From positions 163,442 to 227,441 of the forward strand of contig CAYOCD010000001.1 in the NCBI GenBank assembly GCA_964402425.1: 64,000 bases of DNA. The letters run 5' to 3'. Below are positions 18,923 through 60,905 of this stretch, piece by piece (within the stretch, counting starts at the first letter, position 1; each line of letters begins with the position of its first letter). A program made the position numbers and the translations under genes. The notes under the pieces are model-generated. The model had not been told where the DNA came from. It was given only the letters and a program-made list of their open reading frames with translations, and searched no databases. Origin of the DNA: an uncultured Gammaproteobacteria bacterium (GTDB lineage: Bacteria; Patescibacteriota; Patescibacteriia; UBA9934; GWF2-40-263).

Positions 18923-20191
18923 TTAATCACGATCACGATATCCCAAATCTTTTAACGAACGATGAGCAAAATAAGGATCGTCCTTCATCTTGGTTCCATG
19001 GTTGGACACCCGAAGTTGCTCGTTTCCTCCTTGTGTTCGTCTTTTCGCGAAATAATCAGATGCGATCACTTGAACATTCCCATCTTTATTTACGATGGTA
19101 TTCTTTTTTTCCACTCGATCTTGAATAATCCATGTGTCCTTTGAATCACACATAAAACCATCAACAACCGGCAATGTATCCCGATCAAATTCAGCGGCCA
19201 ATGTTCGCAAGATGGGATTCAGGAGATTAAAGAACGTTCCCTCTCTCAAACCTTTCACAAGAACACTTGATTCAGGCAATACAAGTACAGACTCGTATGT
19301 TCCTCCTCTTGTGTTATAGAATCCACCAGACATCGATCCATCACTTCCCGCATCAAATTTATTTAATCCGGCAGGATATCTGGATTGAAATCGTAAAATC
19401 ACTTTTGTGGGCGATGTCGGGTGCGGTATGATTTGCAACTCATTTGGATCCACCATGCTATCGCGTTTTAATTGACATCGTTCTGCGGGAGGAACTTGAT
19501 CGGAAAAATGTTTTAAAAGTTTTTCTGTGTCTTCGCTTTTATCATCAAAAATTTCAAACCCTCTATGATCCCCACTCATTTTCCCTATTTCTTGCGCAGA
19601 AACACCAAACGCTTTTCCTGTTACGATTCCGTAATAACTTACATCTTCAAGACATGACATCACGACCCATGTTATCTGACGCTTTTTAAAAACATCCATT
19701 TTTTCTGTCTCCTGAATAACAAAGGGGTTTTTAAAATCGTAAAAAAAATGGGGTCGCAATGTTTTAAACGTTTCTTTATCTTGTCTTCGTTGATCAAGCA
19801 TAAGACCATCAAAGACTTGTTGAGCGTCTTCAAGAGAAAGAGCTGTTTTGTCCCCTAAAATAAAGGAGGATTTTTTGCCCGCTAAAAAACGATCTAGATT
19901 TGCTCTTACAATACGAAAACTTGGTCGATTATTCTTTCTAAGTTCAATATATCGATCAATAATCACCTTATTTTTTTCTGAAATTTTTTCCCAAAGTTTA
20001 TCAGTTGTCTCCATAGCAACCCGATCTTTTTCTCTCATTTGTTCCAAGCTAAAATCAACAGGAGCTTCTCTGGATGACAAGAGAACAGAGCGGAGATCCG
20101 TTACTTTAAACTGTGAAATCAATTCTTCGCGAGAAGGAGAAATGCGACTTTTGTCTATTGCAGGAGAACCATGACCACCTTCTGAAAACAT
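18923..20191 (-). CDS. Hypothetical 422-aa protein immediately upstream of parAB (the position usually held by rsmG/mnmG), no recognisable motifs
   Basis: Long uninterrupted ORF. Codon usage looks like neighbours. No Walker, HTH or methyltransferase motifs were found. Confidence 0.55.
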   Translation of the reverse strand: MFSEGGHGSPAIDKSRISPSREELISQFKVTDLRSVLLSSREAPVDFSLEQMREKDRVAMETTDKLWEKISEKNKVIIDRYIELRKNNRPSFRIVRANLDRFLAGKKSSFILGDKTALSLEDAQQVFDGLMLDQRRQDKETFKTLRPHFFYDFKNPFVIQETEKMDVFKKRQITWVVMSCLEDVSYYGIVTGKAFGVSAQEIGKMSGDHRGFEIFDDKSEDTEKLLKHFSDQVPPAERCQLKRDSMVDPNELQIIPHPTSPTKVILRFQSRYPAGLNKFDAGSDGSMSGGFYNTRGGTYESVLVLPESSVLVKGLREGTFFNLLNPILRTLAAEFDRDTLPVVDGFMCDSKDTWIIQDRVEKKNTIVNKDGNVQVIASDYFAKRRTQGGNEQLRVSNHGTKMKDDPYFAHRSLKDLGYRDRD

Positions 20192-20256
20192 AAGGTATCG
20201 ATTATTACCAAGCGCTTATCAAAGCAGACTATAGCATAATGTTGTTGATTTAAAAA

Positions 20257-20287
20257 CAAAAAATCACCACGTGCATGATGATTTTTT
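20257..20287 (-). terminator. Imperfect hairpin plus T-run between the tRNA-Met/repeat unit and the downstream ORF promoter region
   Basis: aaaaaatca-ccacgtgcatga-tgaatttttt. A/T stem with a bulge around an internal cacgtg/catg palindrome; runs on both sides. Confidence 0.4.
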
Positions 20288-20290
20288 GTG

Positions 20291-20418
20291 TATAAAACAT
20301 TCAAAGTGAGATGCATCGCGCTGTGCTGGAGGAGAAAAATCTTTGAGTCGTAGACAGACCTACGGCGAAAAGATTTTTCTCCGAAGCGCAAGCGAGGCGC
20401 TCATTTTGAATGTTTTAT
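20291..20418. repeat. Palindromic MITE-like element copy A (about 128 nt): 19/20-bp terminal inverted repeats around a GC-rich core with a nested 14-bp perfect hairpin
   Basis: TIRs tataaaacattcaaagtgag / ctcattttgaatgttttat. Inner ggagaaaaatcttt...aaagatttttctcc with cgtag/ctacg at the centre. Abuts the tRNA-Met 3' end. Confidence 0.6.
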
Positions 20419-20494
20419 GGTAGCTGGAGAGGGGGTCGAACCCTCGACCTCGGGCTTATGAGTCCCGCGCTCTAACCAACTGAGCTACCCAGCC
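20418..20494 (-). tRNA. tRNA-Met (CAU), elongator type, CCA encoded
   Basis: Minus-strand GGCTGGGTAGCTCAGTTGGTTAGAGCGCGGGACTCATAAGCCCGAGGTCGAGGGTTCGACCCCCTCTCCAGCTACCA. Cloverleaf folds with anticodon loop CUCAUAA, T-loop TTCGACC, and 1-72 / 7-66 G-U pairs. Confidence 0.9.
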
Positions 20495-20621
20495 GTAAAA
20501 ACTTTCAAAATTGGCGATCTTTCGGCTTGCGCTCCGCGCGCTCCATCGAAGGGCATTTAAGCCCATCTCCGTCGCATGCTCGCGCTACACCGAAATCTCA
20601 TCCAATTTTGAAAGTTTTTAC
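20495..20621. repeat. Palindromic MITE-like element copy B (about 127 nt): perfect 20-bp terminal inverted repeats around a GC-rich about 87-nt core
   Basis: gtaaaaactttcaaaattgg ... ccaattttgaaagtttttac. The core shares gagcgcaagc and tgagat blocks with the reverse complement of copy A. Abuts the tRNA-Met 5' end. Confidence 0.6.
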
Positions 20622-20652
20622 ACTTACATTCATTGGATGAGCCTTGATTGTA

Positions 20653-20738
20653 TGGTGCCGACAGTGGGACTTGAACCCACATGAGTTTCCCCACACGATT
20701 TTGAGTCGTGCGCGTATACCAGTTCCGCCATGTCGGCC
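20653..20738 (-). tRNA. tRNA-Leu (CAA), long variable arm, CCA encoded
   Basis: GGCCGACATGGCGGAACTGGTATACGCGCACGACTCAAAATCGTG...GGGTTCAAGTCCCACTGTCGGCACCA. Same architecture as E. coli tRNA-Leu; anticodon loop CUCAAAA. Confidence 0.9.
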
Positions 20739-20791
20739 TATTAAGGTAGCGATAAGATATCAAAATCACAAAAAAATGTCCAGCGGCTAAG

Positions 20792-20820
20792 TTGACGCAT
20801 TTATTCAGATCCTGTATAAA
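20792..20820 (+). promoter_or_regulatory. Sigma-70-type promoter for initiator tRNA (TTGACG-17 nt-TATAAA)
   Basis: ttgacg catttattcagatcctg tataaa, with the tRNA 5' end about 19 nt downstream. Confidence 0.7.
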
Positions 20821-20838
20821 TATCACGCTAGGTTTTAC

Positions 20839-20915
20839 CGCGGGGTAGAGCAGCCTGGCAGCTCGTCGGGCTCATAACCCGAAGGTCATTGGTTCAAATC
20901 CAATCCCCGCAACCA
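20839..20915 (+). tRNA. Initiator tRNA-fMet (CAU), CCA encoded
   Basis: CGCGGGGTAGAGCAGCCTGGCAGCTCGTCGGGCTCATAACCCGAAGGTCATTGGTTCAAATCCAATCCCCGCAACCA. C1:A72 mismatch and three G-C pairs in the anticodon stem (GGG/CCC) are bacterial initiator hallmarks. Confidence 0.9.
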
Positions 20916-20917
20916 AA

Positions 20918-20947
20918 AAATCCATCACAAAATGTGGTGGTTTTTTG
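20918..20947 (+). terminator. Terminator after tRNA-fMet
   Basis: ccatcaca-aaa-tgtggtgg (one U-G pair) followed by ttttttgttggttttt. Confidence 0.55.
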
Positions 20948-21018
20948 TTGGTTTTTCGCCATTTCTGCCTTCTTCGCCCCTTTCCGCTCTTTCCTTTCCG
21001 TGCTATACTTCTTTCATT

Positions 21019-21483
21019 ATGACACTGACCACTCACGCAACTTTAGGTGCTGTTCTTGCCGGAGCGGCCGGAAATCCAGTTCTTGCATTCATTTTCGGAT
21101 TTATCTCCCACTTTATTATTGACATGATTCCGCATGGAGATTCCGGATTAGCAGACAACTTTCGTGTGCACAAGCGCCGACGAAAACAAGCTGTCGCTTA
21201 TGTCGCTGTGGACGCAATCATCGCCATCTTCTTTGTCCTCATGCTTGCAAACACAAGAGACATCATCTCCGTTCGCAACTTTACCTGGGGTATTATTGGT
21301 GGAGTTCTTCCAGATCTCCTTGTTGGTCTTTACGATTTAACAAAATCCCCTCTCCTAAAATGGTTCTTCAAGATGCATTTTTACTTCCATGACTTCTTTA
21401 TAAAACGAAGAGGAGAAGTTCCGCTCTATTACGCGCTCATGGCACAAGTTGTCCTCATTGCATACCTACAAACAAAGCTTTAA
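21019..21483 (+). CDS. Small polytopic membrane protein, possibly YdjM/DUF457-like metal-dependent hydrolase
   Basis: ORF from 20932. Start taken at MTLTTHATLGAV (ATG) because the 5' part overlaps the tRNA terminator. His/Asp-containing HFIIDMIPHGD between TM helices. Confidence 0.45.
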   Translation: MTLTTHATLGAVLAGAAGNPVLAFIFGFISHFIIDMIPHGDSGLADNFRVHKRRRKQAVAYVAVDAIIAIFFVLMLANTRDIISVRNFTWGIIGGVLPDLLVGLYDLTKSPLLKWFFKMHFYFHDFFIKRRGEVPLYYALMAQVVLIAYLQTKL

Positions 21484-44566: not shown

Positions 44567-44858
44567 TGCTTACTAGCACAAAAGCTAGAAGTCGACAGTT
44601 ATTCTACTAAATAACAATCGGCTTCTAGCCCCTAATACAATATCTCCAAAATACTGGAGTAAAACGTTTGTACGAAGGAATTGTTGCTTACAATGTAATA
44701 ATCTCCGAAACAATCTTTCAAAGCTCAGGAAGGTTTTCTTGCAGGTACAAACCAAATGCGTAAGATCTTTCTTCCTTGTTTAATTGATTGGTTGATTTCC
44801 GTCAGGCTTCAGAAGCAAAGAAGACTTCTTTTTCTCTGAAGCCTGACCGAAGTCAGGG
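44567..44858 (-). other. Unusually long (about 290 nt) structured non-coding spacer between rpsJ and rplC
   Basis: Contains a 13-bp inverted repeat gtcaggcttcaga...tctgaagcctgac (about 44800-44850) and an 8-bp IR gctagaag...cttctagc with nested gttatt/aataac (about 44590-44640). No ORF of 60 aa or more. Confidence 0.5.
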
Positions 44859-45194: not shown

Positions 45195-45250
45195 AATAAT
45201 GAAAGAAAGAACGATGTGTAAGAGGCGAAAAGCGCCCCTTACACGTTAAA

Positions 45251-53105: not shown

Positions 53106-56100
53106 CTACTGCAGGAGTTGCGTCGGCAATCCAGGGAACATGTTGAGACCGTCTTTGAGAACACGCTCGACATCGACCTTCGTCTTCCCCACCTTGCGAT
53201 AGAGACTGATTTTGGTCGAACCATTCCCGGGAATCACATGACACCACCAGGGTTCGCCTGCATTCGGGTACCGGGACAGATCGTCGCCATAGGGAGCATC
53301 GACAAGCTCGCGCTTGTACTCTGCAACCATGGTTCCGTTGCCGCGATCTCTGAACGTGAGGCAAACAACTTCACCCGATGTCACTTTTCGCTTGAGGTCA
53401 TCAACAAATGCGAGTTCGGCTTCAAGAGCCTTCTTCGCCTCGTCGAGTTCCGCAAGCCAAATTTCAATAAGCTCTTTATCTTCCACAAGTGACCGTGGAA
53501 GCCGGATCACATTTGAACGAACCACAACGCATTCTTCGCGATCAATGCGTTGACGTTCAATACGCGCCGCATTTTCACGCTCCAGCCGTTCAACGATCTC
53601 CGCATATCGCCGCAGTTCATTCGGCGCCGTCGTGAGATCAAACGCGTTCGTGCTATTCACACGCACACACGTAATCTCACGCTGATTACTATCACGGAAT
53701 TCCATCCGCTTTCCGCCCGAGTAATCGAACACGTACCCAAGGGCACGCACACGAGCATCGAGCACGGCGAACTCTTCGCGTAGTGGAGCGAATTCGGCTT
53801 GCGCCTTTTCGCGCGCCTTGCGCGTTTCTTCTTCGCGACGAGCATGCTCTGCGGCCACCTCACGTTCACGCTGCAGTTCTGCCGCGTGTTCCGCTTGGTA
53901 CGCCTTGAGCGCGTCGCCTGTGAGTATATCTTCTGACGTTATGGTGTTCATCGCAGCGACAACGAGTTCAGGTGTGGATTCCGCCACAATCTTTTTCGCA
54001 ATCGCTTTCGTGAACTGATCCACATACGGCTGAATGCGCTTGCGGCGCTCTTCTCCATAAACATACAACGCACTCGTCGGAAAATTCTGCTGCCACAGCT
54101 TTGCGAGCTGCGGTGCATTATTAACGAAAAACCCAAACCCGTCCGAAAGCTGCATTGCAACCAAAGCGGCAATGGACGGAATGAGCGTTTCCGGAATCGT
54201 CTCCAAGGTTTTACGCTCGAGTTCGATTCCGTTCCAGGTGCGACAACAAACGAACATCTCAGCACCGCTCGAGAAAATATTTTCTCGTGCCACACTAACC
54301 ACAGTCTTACACGCTTCCACCGGAACAAGTTCCGACAACCATTTCTCGTCAATCGCATGACATCCGTGCATGTAGGTTTTGGTTCCACGATCGCTCGTGG
54401 TTCCCATTGCCTTCGTGCACACAAGCAATTCCGGCGGATCATCTCCAAACAGCGCAGAGCCGGGAGAGATGAACGTCGTGCGATCGTTCCAGGAATAATT
54501 GAACCGCCCAGACTTCTGAGCGATATTCACAATGAGCCCCGAGGCAACAGCCTTGCGGAGCTTGAGGGAATCTTGCGACGACGAATAGGTAACCCCTTCC
54601 TGCTCGAGCGTGCTCATCAGTTGATCGCGCAAACGATCCACCTGAGTGAGCGCACGAGACGAAAGGAAATTCTCCCTCGCCCACCGATGATCTCCGTCGG
54701 TCCGGTCCCAGTCCCGCCACACCTTGAGAAAAGTGAGCAAGTCCGAGTTCGGATCGTCAAAGCCTTTCTTCGCCCGACGAGCTTCTTCACGCTTGTCCTT
54801 CGGAGCAACGAAGATCGGCCTCGTGCCGGCAAGGCACGCAGCGATCGTGATCACTTCATCGAGACATTCGTGCCGTTCGCCCTCGAGAATCATGCGCCCA
54901 ATCATCGGCTCCACATGGAACCGCTTCATCCGCATGCCATCCTTCGTGACCTCGCCGTCCGCATCGAGCGCACCGAGCAGCTTCAGACGCGTTTCCGCAT
55001 CCTTCCACTGCACAGTCTTCGGTGCATCCATGAGATCTAGGGCGAGAATTTCCGAAAGCGTATACTTCAGGCAGCGCAAATCCAGGAGCACTTGATCGAG
55101 CGACATGCGCAGGATCTCGGGCTTCGTGAACGCCACGCGGCTTTCGAAATCTTCCTGACTGAACAGACGATGGCAGATGCCATCTTGAGTTCGACCCGCC
55201 CGGCCCTTACGCTGATCGCAACCGGCACGAGAGTGCTCGGTGACTTGCAGCGCAGACATCGACGCATCCACGTACACCGTTGCCTTGATCTGTCCAGAGT
55301 CGACCACGTGTCGAACTCCGTCAATCGTGAGCGAGGTTTCCGCGATGTTCGTCGCCACAATGATGCGGCGGCGACCATCCACCTTGAACACTTCTTTCTG
55401 ATCATCCGGCGCCTGCGAGCCGTAAAGCGGCAGGAACCGATAGCGCGACAATTCGCGTTCCTTTTCCTTCTCGAGAGCATTCACGACTTGCGTGATGCTT
55501 GCTTGATCAGGGAGAAACGCAAGAATGTCGCCCGGCTCATTGTTGTGCAAGATCTCGAGAATCTTCTCGATCATTGCCTTGACCATGTCGCCGCTCTCCG
55601 GCGTCTCCTTCGCGTAGCGGACCTCGACCGGGAAAACCCGACCAGGAACCGTGAGCACAGGAGCGTTGCCGAAGTACTTCGAGAACTTCTCCGTATCGAT
55701 CGTGGCCGACATGACCACAACCTTGAGGTCTGCACGCTTCGGGAGCACGCTCTTCACGAGCGCCATGAGAAGGTCTTGATTCACGCCGCGCTCATGCACC
55801 TCGTCGAGGCAGATGACGCTGTAGCGATGAAGAAGCGGATCCGAATGGAGCTGGTTCAGCAGCACACCTTCGGTGATGTACGCGAGTCGCGTTTCATCTC
55901 CGAGCATACGATCCTGTCCAATCTGGTAACCCACCACAGCCCCGAGATCGGTGCCGTAGAGTTCAGACACCCAGTCTGCGAGCATGGTCGCAGCCGGCCG
56001 CCGAGGTTCGGAAACCCCGATTAGCTTGTGGCTACCGAGTCCGGCCCGCAAAAGCGCGAGCGGACCCTTGGTCGACTTTCCCGCGCCGGTTTGGGCGGCG

Positions 56101-56180
56101 AGAATGACAACCTGGTTTTTACGAACAAGGTCGAGAAACTCGGCCTCATATGCATCAAACGGAAGAATGAGTTCAGACAC
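53106..56180 (-). CDS. DEAH/RHA-family ATP-dependent helicase (HrpB/HrpA-like) with an uncharacterised about 440-aa C-terminal extension; visibly GC-rich gene
   Basis: Motif I AQTGAGKST, II LDEVHER, V TNIAETSLTIDGV, VI QRKGRAGR, then HA2/OB-like. The C-terminal half is rich in coiled-coil/charged segments. GC is clearly above flanks by eye. Confidence 0.8.
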   Translation of the reverse strand: MSELILPFDAYEAEFLDLVRKNQVVILAAQTGAGKSTKGPLALLRAGLGSHKLIGVSEPRRPAATMLADWVSELYGTDLGAVVGYQIGQDRMLGDETRLAYITEGVLLNQLHSDPLLHRYSVICLDEVHERGVNQDLLMALVKSVLPKRADLKVVVMSATIDTEKFSKYFGNAPVLTVPGRVFPVEVRYAKETPESGDMVKAMIEKILEILHNNEPGDILAFLPDQASITQVVNALEKEKERELSRYRFLPLYGSQAPDDQKEVFKVDGRRRIIVATNIAETSLTIDGVRHVVDSGQIKATVYVDASMSALQVTEHSRAGCDQRKGRAGRTQDGICHRLFSQEDFESRVAFTKPEILRMSLDQVLLDLRCLKYTLSEILALDLMDAPKTVQWKDAETRLKLLGALDADGEVTKDGMRMKRFHVEPMIGRMILEGERHECLDEVITIAACLAGTRPIFVAPKDKREEARRAKKGFDDPNSDLLTFLKVWRDWDRTDGDHRWARENFLSSRALTQVDRLRDQLMSTLEQEGVTYSSSQDSLKLRKAVASGLIVNIAQKSGRFNYSWNDRTTFISPGSALFGDDPPELLVCTKAMGTTSDRGTKTYMHGCHAIDEKWLSELVPVEACKTVVSVARENIFSSGAEMFVCCRTWNGIELERKTLETIPETLIPSIAALVAMQLSDGFGFFVNNAPQLAKLWQQNFPTSALYVYGEERRKRIQPYVDQFTKAIAKKIVAESTPELVVAAMNTITSEDILTGDALKAYQAEHAAELQREREVAAEHARREEETRKAREKAQAEFAPLREEFAVLDARVRALGYVFDYSGGKRMEFRDSNQREITCVRVNSTNAFDLTTAPNELRRYAEIVERLERENAARIERQRIDREECVVVRSNVIRLPRSLVEDKELIEIWLAELDEAKKALEAELAFVDDLKRKVTSGEVVCLTFRDRGNGTMVAEYKRELVDAPYGDDLSRYPNAGEPWWCHVIPGNGSTKISLYRKVGKTKVDVERVLKDGLNMFPGLPTQLLQ

Positions 56181-60756: not shown

Positions 60757-60905
60757 GGAAAGGGCGGAAGTGGCAGAGAGGGCAGAAAAGGCGGAAAGGA
60801 ACGAAAGAAACAAGAGCCAATTTGGCTCTTTTTTGTTCACGCTTTCCACCCCATCCCTTTCCGCCCATTCCGCCTTTTCAGCCTTTTCCGCCCTTTTTCA
60901 TTACG
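60757..60905. repeat. About 150-nt imperfect inverted repeat (purine-rich GGCGGAAAGG-type arm / pyrimidine-rich CCTTTCCGCC-type arm) centred on a perfect intrinsic terminator (about 60811-60836)
   Basis: Left arm gggaaagggcggaag...ggcggaaagg. Centre aagagccaa-tttggctct-tttttt. Right arm ctttccacc...ccgccttttcagccttttccgccc. Plus ORF 60680..60910 and minus ORF 60577..60849 here are spurious. Confidence 0.6.

What the first reader, a model, noticed from the sequence alone, without database searches (positions are those of the whole stretch)
20291..20621. Two related about 127-nt palindromic MITE-like elements precisely flanking elongator tRNA-Met
Each element has 20-bp terminal inverted repeats around a GC-rich core: tataaaacattcaaagtgag / ctcattttgaatgttttat, and a perfect gtaaaaactttcaaaattgg / ccaattttgaaagtttttac pair. 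The cores share blocks (gagcgcaagc, tgagat) in mutually inverted orientation. One abuts the tRNA 3' CCA end and the other the tRNA 5' end. They could be miniature mobile elements that target tRNA boundaries. Alternatively they are processing structures: the leader and trailer of the pre-tRNA can also pair with each other. The third possibility is remnants of an integrative element that used tRNA-Met as attachment site.
Basis: seen in the sequence. Interest (0 to 1): 0.65.

Follow-up and report, generated by a model that had tools for sequence, protein, structure and literature searches.

The report
Structured hairpin repeats flanking tRNA-Met
The two 127-base palindromes around this tRNA gene are real and belong to an apparently undescribed family of folded, probably mobile, non-coding elements of candidate-phyla-radiation bacteria. 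These elements always sit with the same end touching the edge of a tRNA or protein gene.

Summary
Element A (20291-20418) and element B (20495-20621) are full-length imperfect hairpins, not just terminal repeats. They abut the 3' CCA end and the 5' end of tRNA-Met(CAT), and they are inverted relative to each other.

They are not unique. A covariance model built from pattern hits finds about 35 relatives in Patescibacteria (Uhrbacteria, Paceibacteria/Parcubacteria, Zambryskibacteria), often several per locus. Across 20 copies 87% of pair cells stay paired, and 41 of 49 pairs show changes on both sides. Internal loops are conserved and purine-rich on one strand only.

The same end always lies 0-8 nt from a gene boundary: a tRNA 3' end, a tRNA 5' end, or a stop codon, which the element's own TAA often supplies. 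The A subfamily is found only at tRNA ends. Related Uhrbacteria carry copies at different tRNA-Leu/Met boundaries, and one relative has none, so copies are gained and lost.

Best reading: a new MITE/ERIC/Correia-like family that is co-transcribed with its host genes. How it moves and what it does to the RNA are inferred, not shown. The polarity rule and the strand asymmetry remain unexplained and suggest recognition of a folded single strand. No match in Rfam, phage or plasmid collections, or the searched literature.

The parts
20291..20418 (+). Element A, A subfamily: a 128-nt full-length imperfect hairpin. The better-folding 'S' strand is the + strand, so the tRNA transcript carries its complement ('anti-S'). 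Its LE end (20418) overlaps the terminal A of the tRNA CCA. The invariant A-type core is GTGCTGGAGG (20323-20332) and CCGAAGCGCAAGC (20381-20393). A tandem G.A loop lies at 20345-20347 / 20366-20368.
   Evidence: I4, I3; 101.8 bits
20495..20621 (-). Element B, a different subfamily (GGATGAGAT...ATCGCC type): a 127-nt hairpin with perfect 20-bp terminal arms. The S strand is the minus strand, so S is in the tRNA transcript. Its LE end (20495) directly abuts tRNA-Met position +1.
   Evidence: I1; closest relatives L010, L033; 87 bits
20418..20494 (-). tRNA with CAT anticodon (non-initiator), flanked on both sides by the LE ends of A and B.
   Evidence: the same tRNA appears in relatives
20653..20737 (-). 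tRNA-Leu(CAA), the first gene of the predicted transcription unit Leu-B-Met-A.
20754..20782 (-). Sigma-70-like promoter TGGACA-17-TATCTT (with TG) upstream of tRNA-Leu. The same hexamers stand upstream of the tRNA cluster in relatives L077 and L078.
20246..20289 (-). Ordinary intrinsic terminator (AAAAAATCATCA-loop-TGGTGATTTTTT plus T tail), 1-3 nt after the RE end of A. In relative L078 the homologous terminator follows the tRNA CCA directly, which marks the empty site.
   Evidence: (I2)
20622..20652 (-). 31-nt spacer between tRNA-Leu and the RE end of B. It contains a 10-nt copy of the element's arm (CTCATCCAAT on the tRNA strand), possibly a remnant or an alternative pairing partner.
   Evidence: (I7)

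Best explanation
A and B are two diverged members, from different subfamilies and in mutually inverted orientation, of a family of 125-132-bp non-coding palindromic elements dispersed in Patescibacteria genomes. I found no prior description of this family.

The family behaves like a non-autonomous mobile element of the MITE / ERIC / Correia kind.
- Copies occur at different gene boundaries in different genomes.
- Filled and empty sites exist between close relatives.
- Several subfamilies coexist in one genome.

Insertion, or survival of an insertion, is confined to the exact edge of a gene. The same end (LE) lies 0-8 nt from a tRNA 3' CCA, a tRNA 5' end or a stop codon, and the element's terminal TAA often serves as the stop.

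In this window the elements lie inside one predicted transcription unit on the minus strand:
- promoter 20782-20754
- tRNA-Leu
- B
- tRNA-Met
- A
- terminator 20289-20256

The precursor would therefore carry two hairpins of about 60 bp flush with both tRNA ends. These hairpins must be removed by RNase P at the 5' end and by an endonuclease (RNase III-like or RNase Z-like) at the 3' end.

The hairpin shape and a set of purine-rich internal loops on one strand are conserved. I infer that the element is recognised as a folded single strand, most likely as single-stranded DNA during mobilisation, because that strand is the transcription template at most loci.

Shown:
- the anatomy
- family membership
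- conserved structure
- strand asymmetry
- the polarity rule
- gain and loss between relatives
- position inside the predicted transcript

Inferred:
- mobility as the cause
- the mobilising enzyme
- any RNA processing
For: Family
- Pattern scans found relatives in CPR genomes and metagenomes.
- Model R1 then found extra diverged copies in the same loci, all on one strand within a locus: L048 with 5 copies in 4 kb, L064 with 3, L071 with 3.

Structure
- 20 copies, 49 pairs: 87.1% of cells paired against 70.0% in shuffles and 35-51% with slid partners.
- 41 pairs change on both sides; 0 of 500 shuffles reach this.

Strand asymmetry
- 165 purine-purine against 17 pyrimidine-pyrimidine mismatches.
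- 91 against 46 wobble pairs.
- The S strand folds better in 25 of 27 copies. This includes 9 of the 10 copies that played no part in defining S.

Gain and loss
- rplF|rplR is filled in L064 but is a 9-nt spacer in L066/L069.
- The tRNA-Leu/Met cluster of related Uhrbacteria carries copies after Met (window, L077, L079), before Met (window, L082) or after Leu (L082, L083). L078 and L080 carry none.

Polarity
- By my count LE lies 0-8 nt from a gene boundary in 27 of 27 independent loci, while the RE end lies 1-500 nt away.
- 23 loci have anti-S in the host transcript and 4 have S (binomial two-sided p about 3e-4, own arithmetic).

Other points
- Stop codons are supplied by the element's TAA.
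- Transcription unit.
- Analogy with ERIC (about 127 bp, TA at both ends, co-transcribed, orientation-dependent effect) and with Correia/NEMIS (RNase III substrates): PMC2229807, PMC3184786.
Against: - No transposase or recombinase with matching ends was found, and none could be searched for genome-wide.
- There is no target-site duplication at the five tRNA-abutting copies whose flanks can be read: the left flank is always ACCA, while the right flanks differ.
- Only two copies occur in this 64-kb window. None lies in its ribosomal-protein operons.
- Copies within a genome are mostly old and diverged, not a recent burst.
- The copies at the tRNA-Met 3' end in the window and in L077 differ at 19 positions. 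Fourteen of these form 7 compensated pairs, and only 1 lies in the 23 unpaired columns. This looks like selection on the spot, that is, a host function, rather than neutral decay of an inserted parasite.
- Compensated changes in a DNA palindrome can also arise by arm-to-arm template switching, so covariation alone does not prove selection.
Confidence: 0.6

Rival explanations
1. The elements are host-retained cis-acting RNA 'punctuation' hairpins. They are kept because they organise polycistronic transcripts. They would act as single-cut RNase III-type sites like those between phage T7 early cistrons, as 3' protective hairpins for the upstream gene, or as couplers of translation between cistrons. 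They would also release tRNAs from the Leu-B-Met-A precursor.
For: - The elements always lie inside predicted transcripts of highly expressed genes: tuf|rpsJ, rpsH|rplF, rpsM|rpsK|rpsD, secY, lysS, nrdA, nifS|nifU and tRNAs.
- Their orientation relative to transcription is fixed in 23 of 27 loci.
- Unpaired loop bases are conserved while stems covary, even between copies at the same tRNA end in two genomes.
- The 19-bp perfect A/U-rich basal helix plus asymmetric internal loops resembles known RNase III substrates (own knowledge).
Against: - The strand with the well-formed purine-rich loops and the lower folding energy is antisense to the host transcript at most loci.
- The polarity rule is mirror-symmetric. 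The same DNA end touches tRNA 3' ends and tRNA 5' ends, so the RNA next to the tRNA is the complementary sequence in the two cases.
- Presence is patchy. The same operon junctions are empty in this window (S8|L6 spacer of 11 nt) and in close relatives.
- No RNase or transcript data are available.
Confidence: 0.2
2. The elements are single-stranded-DNA recombination or transposition substrates. They would work like integron attC sites (folded bottom strand, antisense to the upstream ORF, starting at its stop codon) or like REPIN/RAYT and IS200/IS605 hairpins, handled by a tyrosine recombinase or an HUH enzyme encoded elsewhere in the genome.
For: - Strand-specific conserved imperfections lie on the strand antisense to the upstream gene.
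- One end is flush with the stop codon.
- Length is 125-132 nt, with a conserved fold but variable sequence.
- No target duplication is seen at tRNA sites.
- Gene order and strand of tRNA-Leu and tRNA-Met are shuffled among relatives that carry the elements.
Against: - The termini do not fit the attC consensus RYYYAAC/GTTRRRY and are not conserved in diverged copies.
- Neighbouring genes are essential operons in the canonical order, not cassettes.
- There is no GTAG/CGTC tag of REPs.
- No integrase or Y1 transposase was seen in the loci examined.
Confidence: 0.12
3. The elements are scars of an integrative element (attL/attR-like remnants) that used tRNA-Met as its attachment site.
For: tRNA genes are common integration sites, and the two units flank the tRNA.
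Against: - Both units are complete members of a family mostly found next to protein genes.
- They are inverted, not direct.
- There is no repeated tRNA 3' segment and no integrase nearby.
- Relatives carry single copies at other tRNA ends.
Confidence: 0.02

Closest known systems
ERIC / IRU (RU-1) elements of Enterobacteriaceae and Vibrio
   Same: - Imperfect palindrome of about 127 bp that folds as one long hairpin.
- Intergenic and co-transcribed with flanking genes.
- TA at both termini.
- Copies that overlap or adjoin stop codons are preferentially in one orientation, and orientation decides the effect on mRNA. This point rests on De Gregorio et al. 2005 as summarised in PMC2229807 and PMC3184786. 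The stop-codon orientation bias itself is from my memory of that paper, which could not be read here.
   Different: - No sequence similarity, and a different phylum.
- Here one subfamily sits only at tRNA ends.
- The same end abuts 5' as well as 3' gene boundaries.
- Loop bases are conserved and purine-rich on the antisense strand.
- tRNA-adjacent copies show no TA duplication.
Correia / NEMIS elements of Neisseria
   Same: - MITE-like hairpins of 100-155 bp, co-transcribed.
- The RNA hairpins are RNase III substrates (PMC2229807).
- Filled and empty sites occur between strains.
   Different: - Correia elements have defined 26-bp terminal repeats, an IHF site and hundreds of near-identical copies.
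- Here the copies are few to moderate in number and diverged, with covarying stems.
REPIN / REP-RAYT systems
   Same: - Hairpin-forming doublets of about 100 nt, thought to move as a folded single strand.
- Long-term persistence with maintenance of the structure.
   Different: - No GTAG/CGTC tag.
- Not built from two short REPs.
- The RAYT partner could not be looked for.
Integron attC sites
   Same: - Imperfect palindromes of 57-141 bp that begin at the stop codon of the upstream ORF.
- Conserved fold rather than sequence.
- The functional folded strand is the one antisense to the ORF.
   Different: - The core consensus is not met.
- No integrase and no cassette array; the flanking genes are essential operons and tRNAs.
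- The two sites around tRNA-Met are inverted, not direct.
RNase III processing hairpins between phage T7 early cistrons; hairpin or tRNA 'punctuation' in organelle transcripts
   Same: Long irregular hairpins placed exactly between genes of a polycistronic transcript, with asymmetric internal loops that make orientation matter.
   Different: Those are fixed features of one genome. Here the elements are patchy, belong to several subfamilies, and show a mirror-symmetric polarity at the DNA level.

Membership tests
Bacterial MITE (miniature inverted-repeat transposable element) | Small (about 50-500 bp), non-coding, with terminal inverted repeats | tested here: met
   127-128 bp; 19-20-bp terminal arms. 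Only an implausible ORF overlaps the elements.
Bacterial MITE (miniature inverted-repeat transposable element) | Multiple dispersed copies within a genome | tested here: inconclusive
   Several copies per 4-14 kb in L048, L064 and L071. Only the two copies at one locus in this 64-kb window. Whole genomes could not be scanned.
Bacterial MITE (miniature inverted-repeat transposable element) | Presence/absence polymorphism at orthologous sites | tested here: met
   rplF|rplR is filled in L064 and empty in L066/L069. The tRNA-Met 3' and 5' sites are empty in L078. Positions differ among L077, L079, L082 and L083.
Bacterial MITE (miniature inverted-repeat transposable element) | Target-site duplication | tested here: inconclusive
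   TA lies at both ends of most consensus-type copies, and the rplF site fits a TA duplication at a TAG stop. However, TA is palindromic and pairs within the hairpin. Five tRNA-abutting copies show no duplication.
Bacterial MITE (miniature inverted-repeat transposable element) | Cognate autonomous insertion sequence with the same ends | not testable with these tools
   None was seen in the loci held. Phage and plasmid collections match only the tRNA.
ERIC / IRU | Sequence homology to the ERIC consensus; enterobacterial or vibrio host | tested here: not met
   Compared only by eye with the ERIC consensus recalled from memory; no similarity seen. No formal search against ERIC was run: Rfam returned nothing, but whether it holds an ERIC model was not checked. 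The host is Patescibacteria.
Integron attC site | R''/R' core RYYYAAC ... GTTRRRY | tested here: not met
   The consensus ends are TAAAAAC...GTTTTTA. Diverged copies have unrelated ends.
Integron attC site | Follows promoterless cassette ORFs in an array next to intI | tested here: not met
   The flanking genes are tuf, rps/rpl genes, secY, lysS, nrdA, nifSU and tRNAs, in canonical order.
REP / REPIN-RAYT | 20-40-nt REP units tagged GTAG or CGTC, in inverted pairs; RAYT gene flanked by REPs | tested here: not met
   The alignments show no such tag and no two-unit build. Presence of a RAYT gene is not testable here.
Intrinsic terminator | Short G+C-rich stem directly followed by a U run | tested here: not met
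   The element base is A/U-rich and its stem is about 60 bp. Ordinary terminators of these genomes are 12-15-bp hairpins right after the gene, and one follows element A separately.
Any Rfam 15 RNA family | Score at or above the family's gathering threshold | tested here: not met
   Only the three tRNAs pass. At E <= 10 there are only chance miRNA-type hairpin matches.
Integrative-element attachment-site remnant at a tRNA | Direct repeat of the tRNA 3' segment and an integrase or island | tested here: not met
   No direct repeat. The neighbours are ParA/ParB, a 422-aa orphan ORF and a glycosyltransferase.

The most novel reading that the evidence does not exclude
The elements are a new class of strand-specific, structure-recognised mobile hairpins. 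They home to the exact termini of genes, both ends of tRNAs and stop codons, through a folded single-stranded intermediate. This could be an attC-, REPIN- or IS200-like DNA mechanism with an unknown enzyme, or an RNA-templated route that joins the element to mature tRNA ends. In streamlined CPR genomes they may have been co-opted as punctuation of polycistronic transcripts.
Probability: 0.2. Interest if true: 0.8.

Novelty: new variant of a known kind. Interest (0 to 1): 0.55.

Why it matters
- Candidate-phyla-radiation bacteria have tiny, tightly packed genomes and very few recognised mobile or repeated elements. A structured palindrome family that sits between essential genes (ribosomal-protein cistrons, tuf|rpsJ, both ends of tRNAs) would be one of the few known repeat families in this phylum, and my searches found none described.
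- The family is a handle on how these organisms process polycistronic RNA.
- The strict polarity and the one-strand conservation of loop bases point to a specific protein partner that is still unknown.
- Practically, the elements explain long 'unannotated' intergenic gaps and shuffled tRNA clusters in Patescibacteria assemblies. A covariance model can annotate them.

Tried and rejected
- Rfam at gathering threshold and at E <= 10 gave only the tRNAs.
- Phage and plasmid BLAST matched only the tRNA part.
- Viral contigs hold a different branched palindrome with the same 12-mer. The A-type core is absent from them.
- Palindromes sharing AAAACWTTCAAA in Christensenella, Bacteroidales, Lachnospiraceae and Saccharibacteria are larger repeats with other termini. 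They are probably chance sharers of an A/T-rich 12-mer, so I left them out of the family.
- Homologues of the adjacent 422-aa ORF were useless for synteny: only 3 exist, and their context is not syntenic.
- Uptake-sequence idea: the terminal motif is not enriched outside the elements in the window (2 extra loose matches against 0.67 expected).
- Terminator idea: the short AAAAAC-stem-GTTTTT hits of the model are ordinary terminators, not relics of the element.
- K-turn reading of the conserved GGA/GA loop: the register does not fit the canonical motif (by inspection).
- Outward promoter in one end: both ends carry the same TTGAAA, so this cannot give polarity.
- Replication-strand bias: A and B lie on opposite strands at one locus.
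- The MAFFT alignment of all subfamilies (A1) was poor in the middle stem, so pair counts were made on A3.
- Four literature searches found no description of CPR palindromic repeats. De Gregorio et al. 2005 could not be read.

Full report
**1. What is in the window**

The stretch 20246-20782 reads, on the minus strand, as one compact unit:
- a sigma-70-like promoter, TGGACA-17-TATCTT (20782-20754)
- tRNA-Leu(CAA) (20737-20653)
- a 31-nt spacer
- element B (20621-20495)
- tRNA-Met(CAT) (20494-20418)
- element A (20418-20291)
- an ordinary intrinsic terminator (20289-20256 plus T tail)

A divergent initiator tRNA lies at 20839-20915.

B has perfect 20-nt terminal arms. A has 19-nt arms with one mismatch. 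Both pair along their full length. The 361-nt precursor folds as hairpin-cloverleaf-hairpin at -155.2 kcal/mol, z = -9.6.

B ends at tRNA position -1. A starts on the last A of the CCA.

A and B are related mainly through their termini and a few core blocks, and the relation is stronger in inverted orientation. The only refinement is that these are whole-length hairpins, not terminal repeats around an unstructured core.

**2. They are not unique**

A scan of one genome per prokaryotic species for the paired terminal motif gave 43 loci. Those with the same overall architecture were all Patescibacteria: Uhrbacteria, Paceibacterota/Parcubacteria, Zambryskibacteria and unnamed CPR. The metagenome scan added more.

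From 18 of them I built covariance model R1. R1 finds the seeds at 80-114 bits. It also finds additional diverged copies in the same loci that the strict pattern had missed:
- five copies within 4 kb of L048
- three in L064
- three in L071
- two each in L033, L050 and L059

Within a locus all copies lie on the same strand. Nothing else in the 64-kb window scores above 18 bits. That window holds the str/S10/spc ribosomal-protein operons.

Rfam has no matching family. Phage and plasmid collections match only the tRNA. Four literature searches found no description of such repeats in these phyla.

**3. Conserved fold and one-strand asymmetry**

On a 20-sequence alignment (A3) with a 49-pair hairpin:
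- 87.1% of cells form standard pairs. Column shuffles give 70.0%, and slid partners give 35-51%.
- 41 pairs show changes on both sides, and 0 of 500 shuffles reach this.

The architecture is constant:
- a basal helix of about 19 bp
- a one-base bulge
- short helices separated by small purine-rich loops
- a freely covarying 13-bp helix
- a tandem G.A loop
- a 6-8-bp apical stem

The two strands are not equivalent. On the strand I call S:
- opposed unpaired bases are purine-purine 165 times and pyrimidine-pyrimidine 17 times
- wobble pairs number 91, against 46 on the complement
- S folds 10-20 kcal/mol better in 25 of 27 copies
- this includes 9 of the 10 copies found by the model and not used to define S

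A is S on the + strand and B is S on the - strand.

A caveat applies. In a DNA palindrome, compensated changes can also come from arm-to-arm template switching, so covariation alone is not proof of selection. The conserved mismatches and loop bases are better evidence for selection.

**4. Where the copies sit**

The neighbours are housekeeping, highly expressed genes:
- tuf|rpsJ
- rpsH|rplF and rplF|rplR
- rpsM|rpsK|rpsD|rpoA and rplQ|rplM
- secY, lysS, nrdA, ahpC
- nifS|nifU and pilB|pilC
- murJ, lemA
- tRNAs

In each case one particular end abuts a gene boundary within 0-8 nt. This end is LE, the 3' end of the S strand. The boundaries are:
- a stop codon at about 20 loci, where the TAA of the element's TAAAAC terminus is usually the stop codon itself
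- a tRNA 3' CCA at three independent loci
- a tRNA 5' end at three loci
- a start codon at one locus

The other end (RE) lies 1-500 nt from the next feature.

At 23 loci the host transcript carries the anti-S strand, and at 4 it carries S (two-sided binomial p about 3e-4, own arithmetic). In those 4 loci the abutted boundary flips to the downstream gene. The rule is therefore a property of the DNA end, not of the RNA sequence.

In the window both A and B turn LE towards tRNA-Met. That is why they are inverted relative to each other.

**5. The orthologous locus in relatives**

The 154-aa protein next to the tRNA cluster has hundreds of homologues. Those that carry a source name are called Uhrbacteria, Parcubacteria or Patescibacteria. 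Six syntenic loci were fetched and scanned:

| Locus (protein identity) | Arrangement |
|---|---|
| L077 (92%) | promoter, tRNA-Met, A-type element, tRNA-Leu, fMet |
| L079 (78%) | tRNA-Met, A-type element, tRNA-Leu |
| L083 (75%) | tRNA-Leu, A-type element, tRNA-Met |
| L082 (79%) | tRNA-Leu, element, 42 nt, inverted element, tRNA-Met |
| L078 (83%) | tRNA-Leu, 12 nt, tRNA-Met, terminator directly after CCA; no element |
| L080 (81%) | no element |

Three points follow.
- The sites in the window are filled versions of sites that are empty in L078.
- Copies come and go among relatives.
- LE touches the tRNA end every time.

All eight A-subfamily copies known (window, L077, L079, L082 twice, L083, L011, L026) are tRNA-adjacent. 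They share an invariant core, GTGCTGGAGG ... CCGAAGCNCAAGC. In about 200 kb of Uhrbacteria sequence scanned, no copy lies next to a protein gene. The order and strand of tRNA-Leu and tRNA-Met also differ among these genomes.

**6. Mobile or functional**

For mobility:
- Filled and empty sites exist. The pair rplF|rplR (L064 against L066/L069) fits a TA duplication at a former TAG stop.
- Positions differ between relatives.
- Several subfamilies are shared across distant lineages and coexist within one genome.
- Two nearly identical neighbouring copies occur in L048.

For selection on the spot: the window copy and the L077 copy at the tRNA-Met 3' end differ at 19 positions. Fourteen of these form 7 compensated pairs, and only 1 falls in the 23 unpaired columns.

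Against a classical cut-and-paste MITE: five tRNA-abutting copies show no target duplication, and no transposase was seen.

I therefore favour a MITE/ERIC/Correia-like mobile hairpin whose fold is under selection, with confidence 0.6. The rivals are:
- a host-retained processing hairpin (0.2)
- a single-stranded-DNA recombination substrate of the attC/REPIN kind (0.12)

These readings are not mutually exclusive. Correia elements, for example, are both mobile and RNase III substrates (PMC2229807).

**7. Consequence for this tRNA (inferred)**

The Leu-B-Met-A precursor carries hairpins of about 60 bp flush with both tRNA-Met ends. RNase P must cut at the foot of B, and an endonuclease must free the CCA end from A. 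The leader and trailer could also pair with each other (19 nt, 84%), but the minimum-energy fold keeps the two hairpins apart. None of this was tested.

**8. Comparison with known families**

The closest analogue is ERIC/IRU. It is about 127 bp, has TA at both ends, is co-transcribed, and its orientation matters for RNase E-dependent decay of the upstream mRNA (PMC2229807, PMC3184786). From memory, De Gregorio et al. 2005 also report that stop-codon-adjacent ERICs prefer one orientation. That paper could not be opened.

There is no sequence homology to ERIC, Correia, REP or attC. The defining features of attC (core consensus, cassette arrays) and of REP (GTAG/CGTC tag) were tested and are not met.

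What differs from all of them:
- the mirror-symmetric polarity rule
- the tRNA-end specificity of one subfamily
- conserved purine-rich loops on the strand antisense to host genes

**9. Verdict**

The finding is real and reproducible. It is a new family of a known general kind, with two unexplained regularities worth following up. Interest 0.55.

Noticed in passing
window 44793-44855: A 63-nt near-perfect hairpin starts 3 nt after the rpsJ (S10) stop codon, before rplC. It is not a member of the family by model R1. It is another gene-end hairpin in the same genome.
   Followed up: partly
window about 45216-45244 (minus strand): A G+C-rich hairpin (GUGUAAGGGGCG...CGCCUCUUACAC) lies immediately after the tuf stop, upstream of rpsJ. 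In L064 this junction holds a family copy instead.
   Followed up: no
window 60759-60896: A long inverted repeat with 41-nt arms, purine-rich on one arm (AAAGGGCGGAAG...) and pyrimidine-rich on the other. It lies between a Nudix/NrtR-like gene and a convergent ORF.
   Followed up: no
window 53106-56180: A 1024-aa DEAH/HrpA-like helicase gene lies in a stretch of 0.56 G+C, against about 0.43 elsewhere. This may be foreign DNA.
   Followed up: no
window 18923-20191: A 422-aa ORF with no Pfam match and only 3 homologues in 5.8 billion proteins. It sits between the tRNA cluster and parA, and it is absent from the syntenic loci of six relatives.
   Followed up: partly
window 20916-21018: The ORF listed as 183 aa (20932-21483) is 154 aa in all homologues, so its real start is near 21019. 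The stretch before it is a C/T-rich leader after the initiator-tRNA terminator.
   Followed up: partly
window 20632-20652: The tRNA-Leu/B spacer contains a 10-12-nt copy of the element's own arm (ATTGGATGAGCC on the + strand). It is complementary to part of B, and may be a remnant of an older copy or an alternative pairing partner.
   Followed up: no
L077, L078, L079, L080, L082, L083 against window 20400-20920: The order and strand of tRNA-Leu(CAA), tRNA-Met and initiator tRNA differ among closely related Uhrbacteria: Met then Leu in L077 and L079, Leu then Met elsewhere, and fMet inverted in L082. This is a rearrangement hot spot that coincides with the elements.
   Followed up: partly
window 20418-20494: By my manual parsing, the flanked CAT tRNA appears to have G1.U72 and G7.U66 wobble pairs in the acceptor stem and an A31/G39 mismatch. 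Whether it is elongator Met or a lysidine-type Ile2 tRNA was not resolved.
   Followed up: no
L062 (1.3-kb marine contig), L009/L036/L057 (Saccharibacteria), L006/L015/L019/L037/L046 (Christensenella sp. UBA1685): Other palindromic repeat families share the 12-mer AAAACWTTCAAA. L062 is packed with tandem and inverted copies of it. The Saccharibacteria copies are identical together with more than 40 nt of flank. The Christensenella genome has at least 5 near-identical copies. None was analysed further.
   Followed up: partly
L048 7290-7460: The rpsM|rpsK copy of the element carries a 55-nt insertion inside its LE arm. It shares its whole right half, plus a 15-nt tail (AAATAAATTAATAAA), with the rpsK|rpsD copy. 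This points to local duplication or gene conversion between neighbouring copies.
   Followed up: partly
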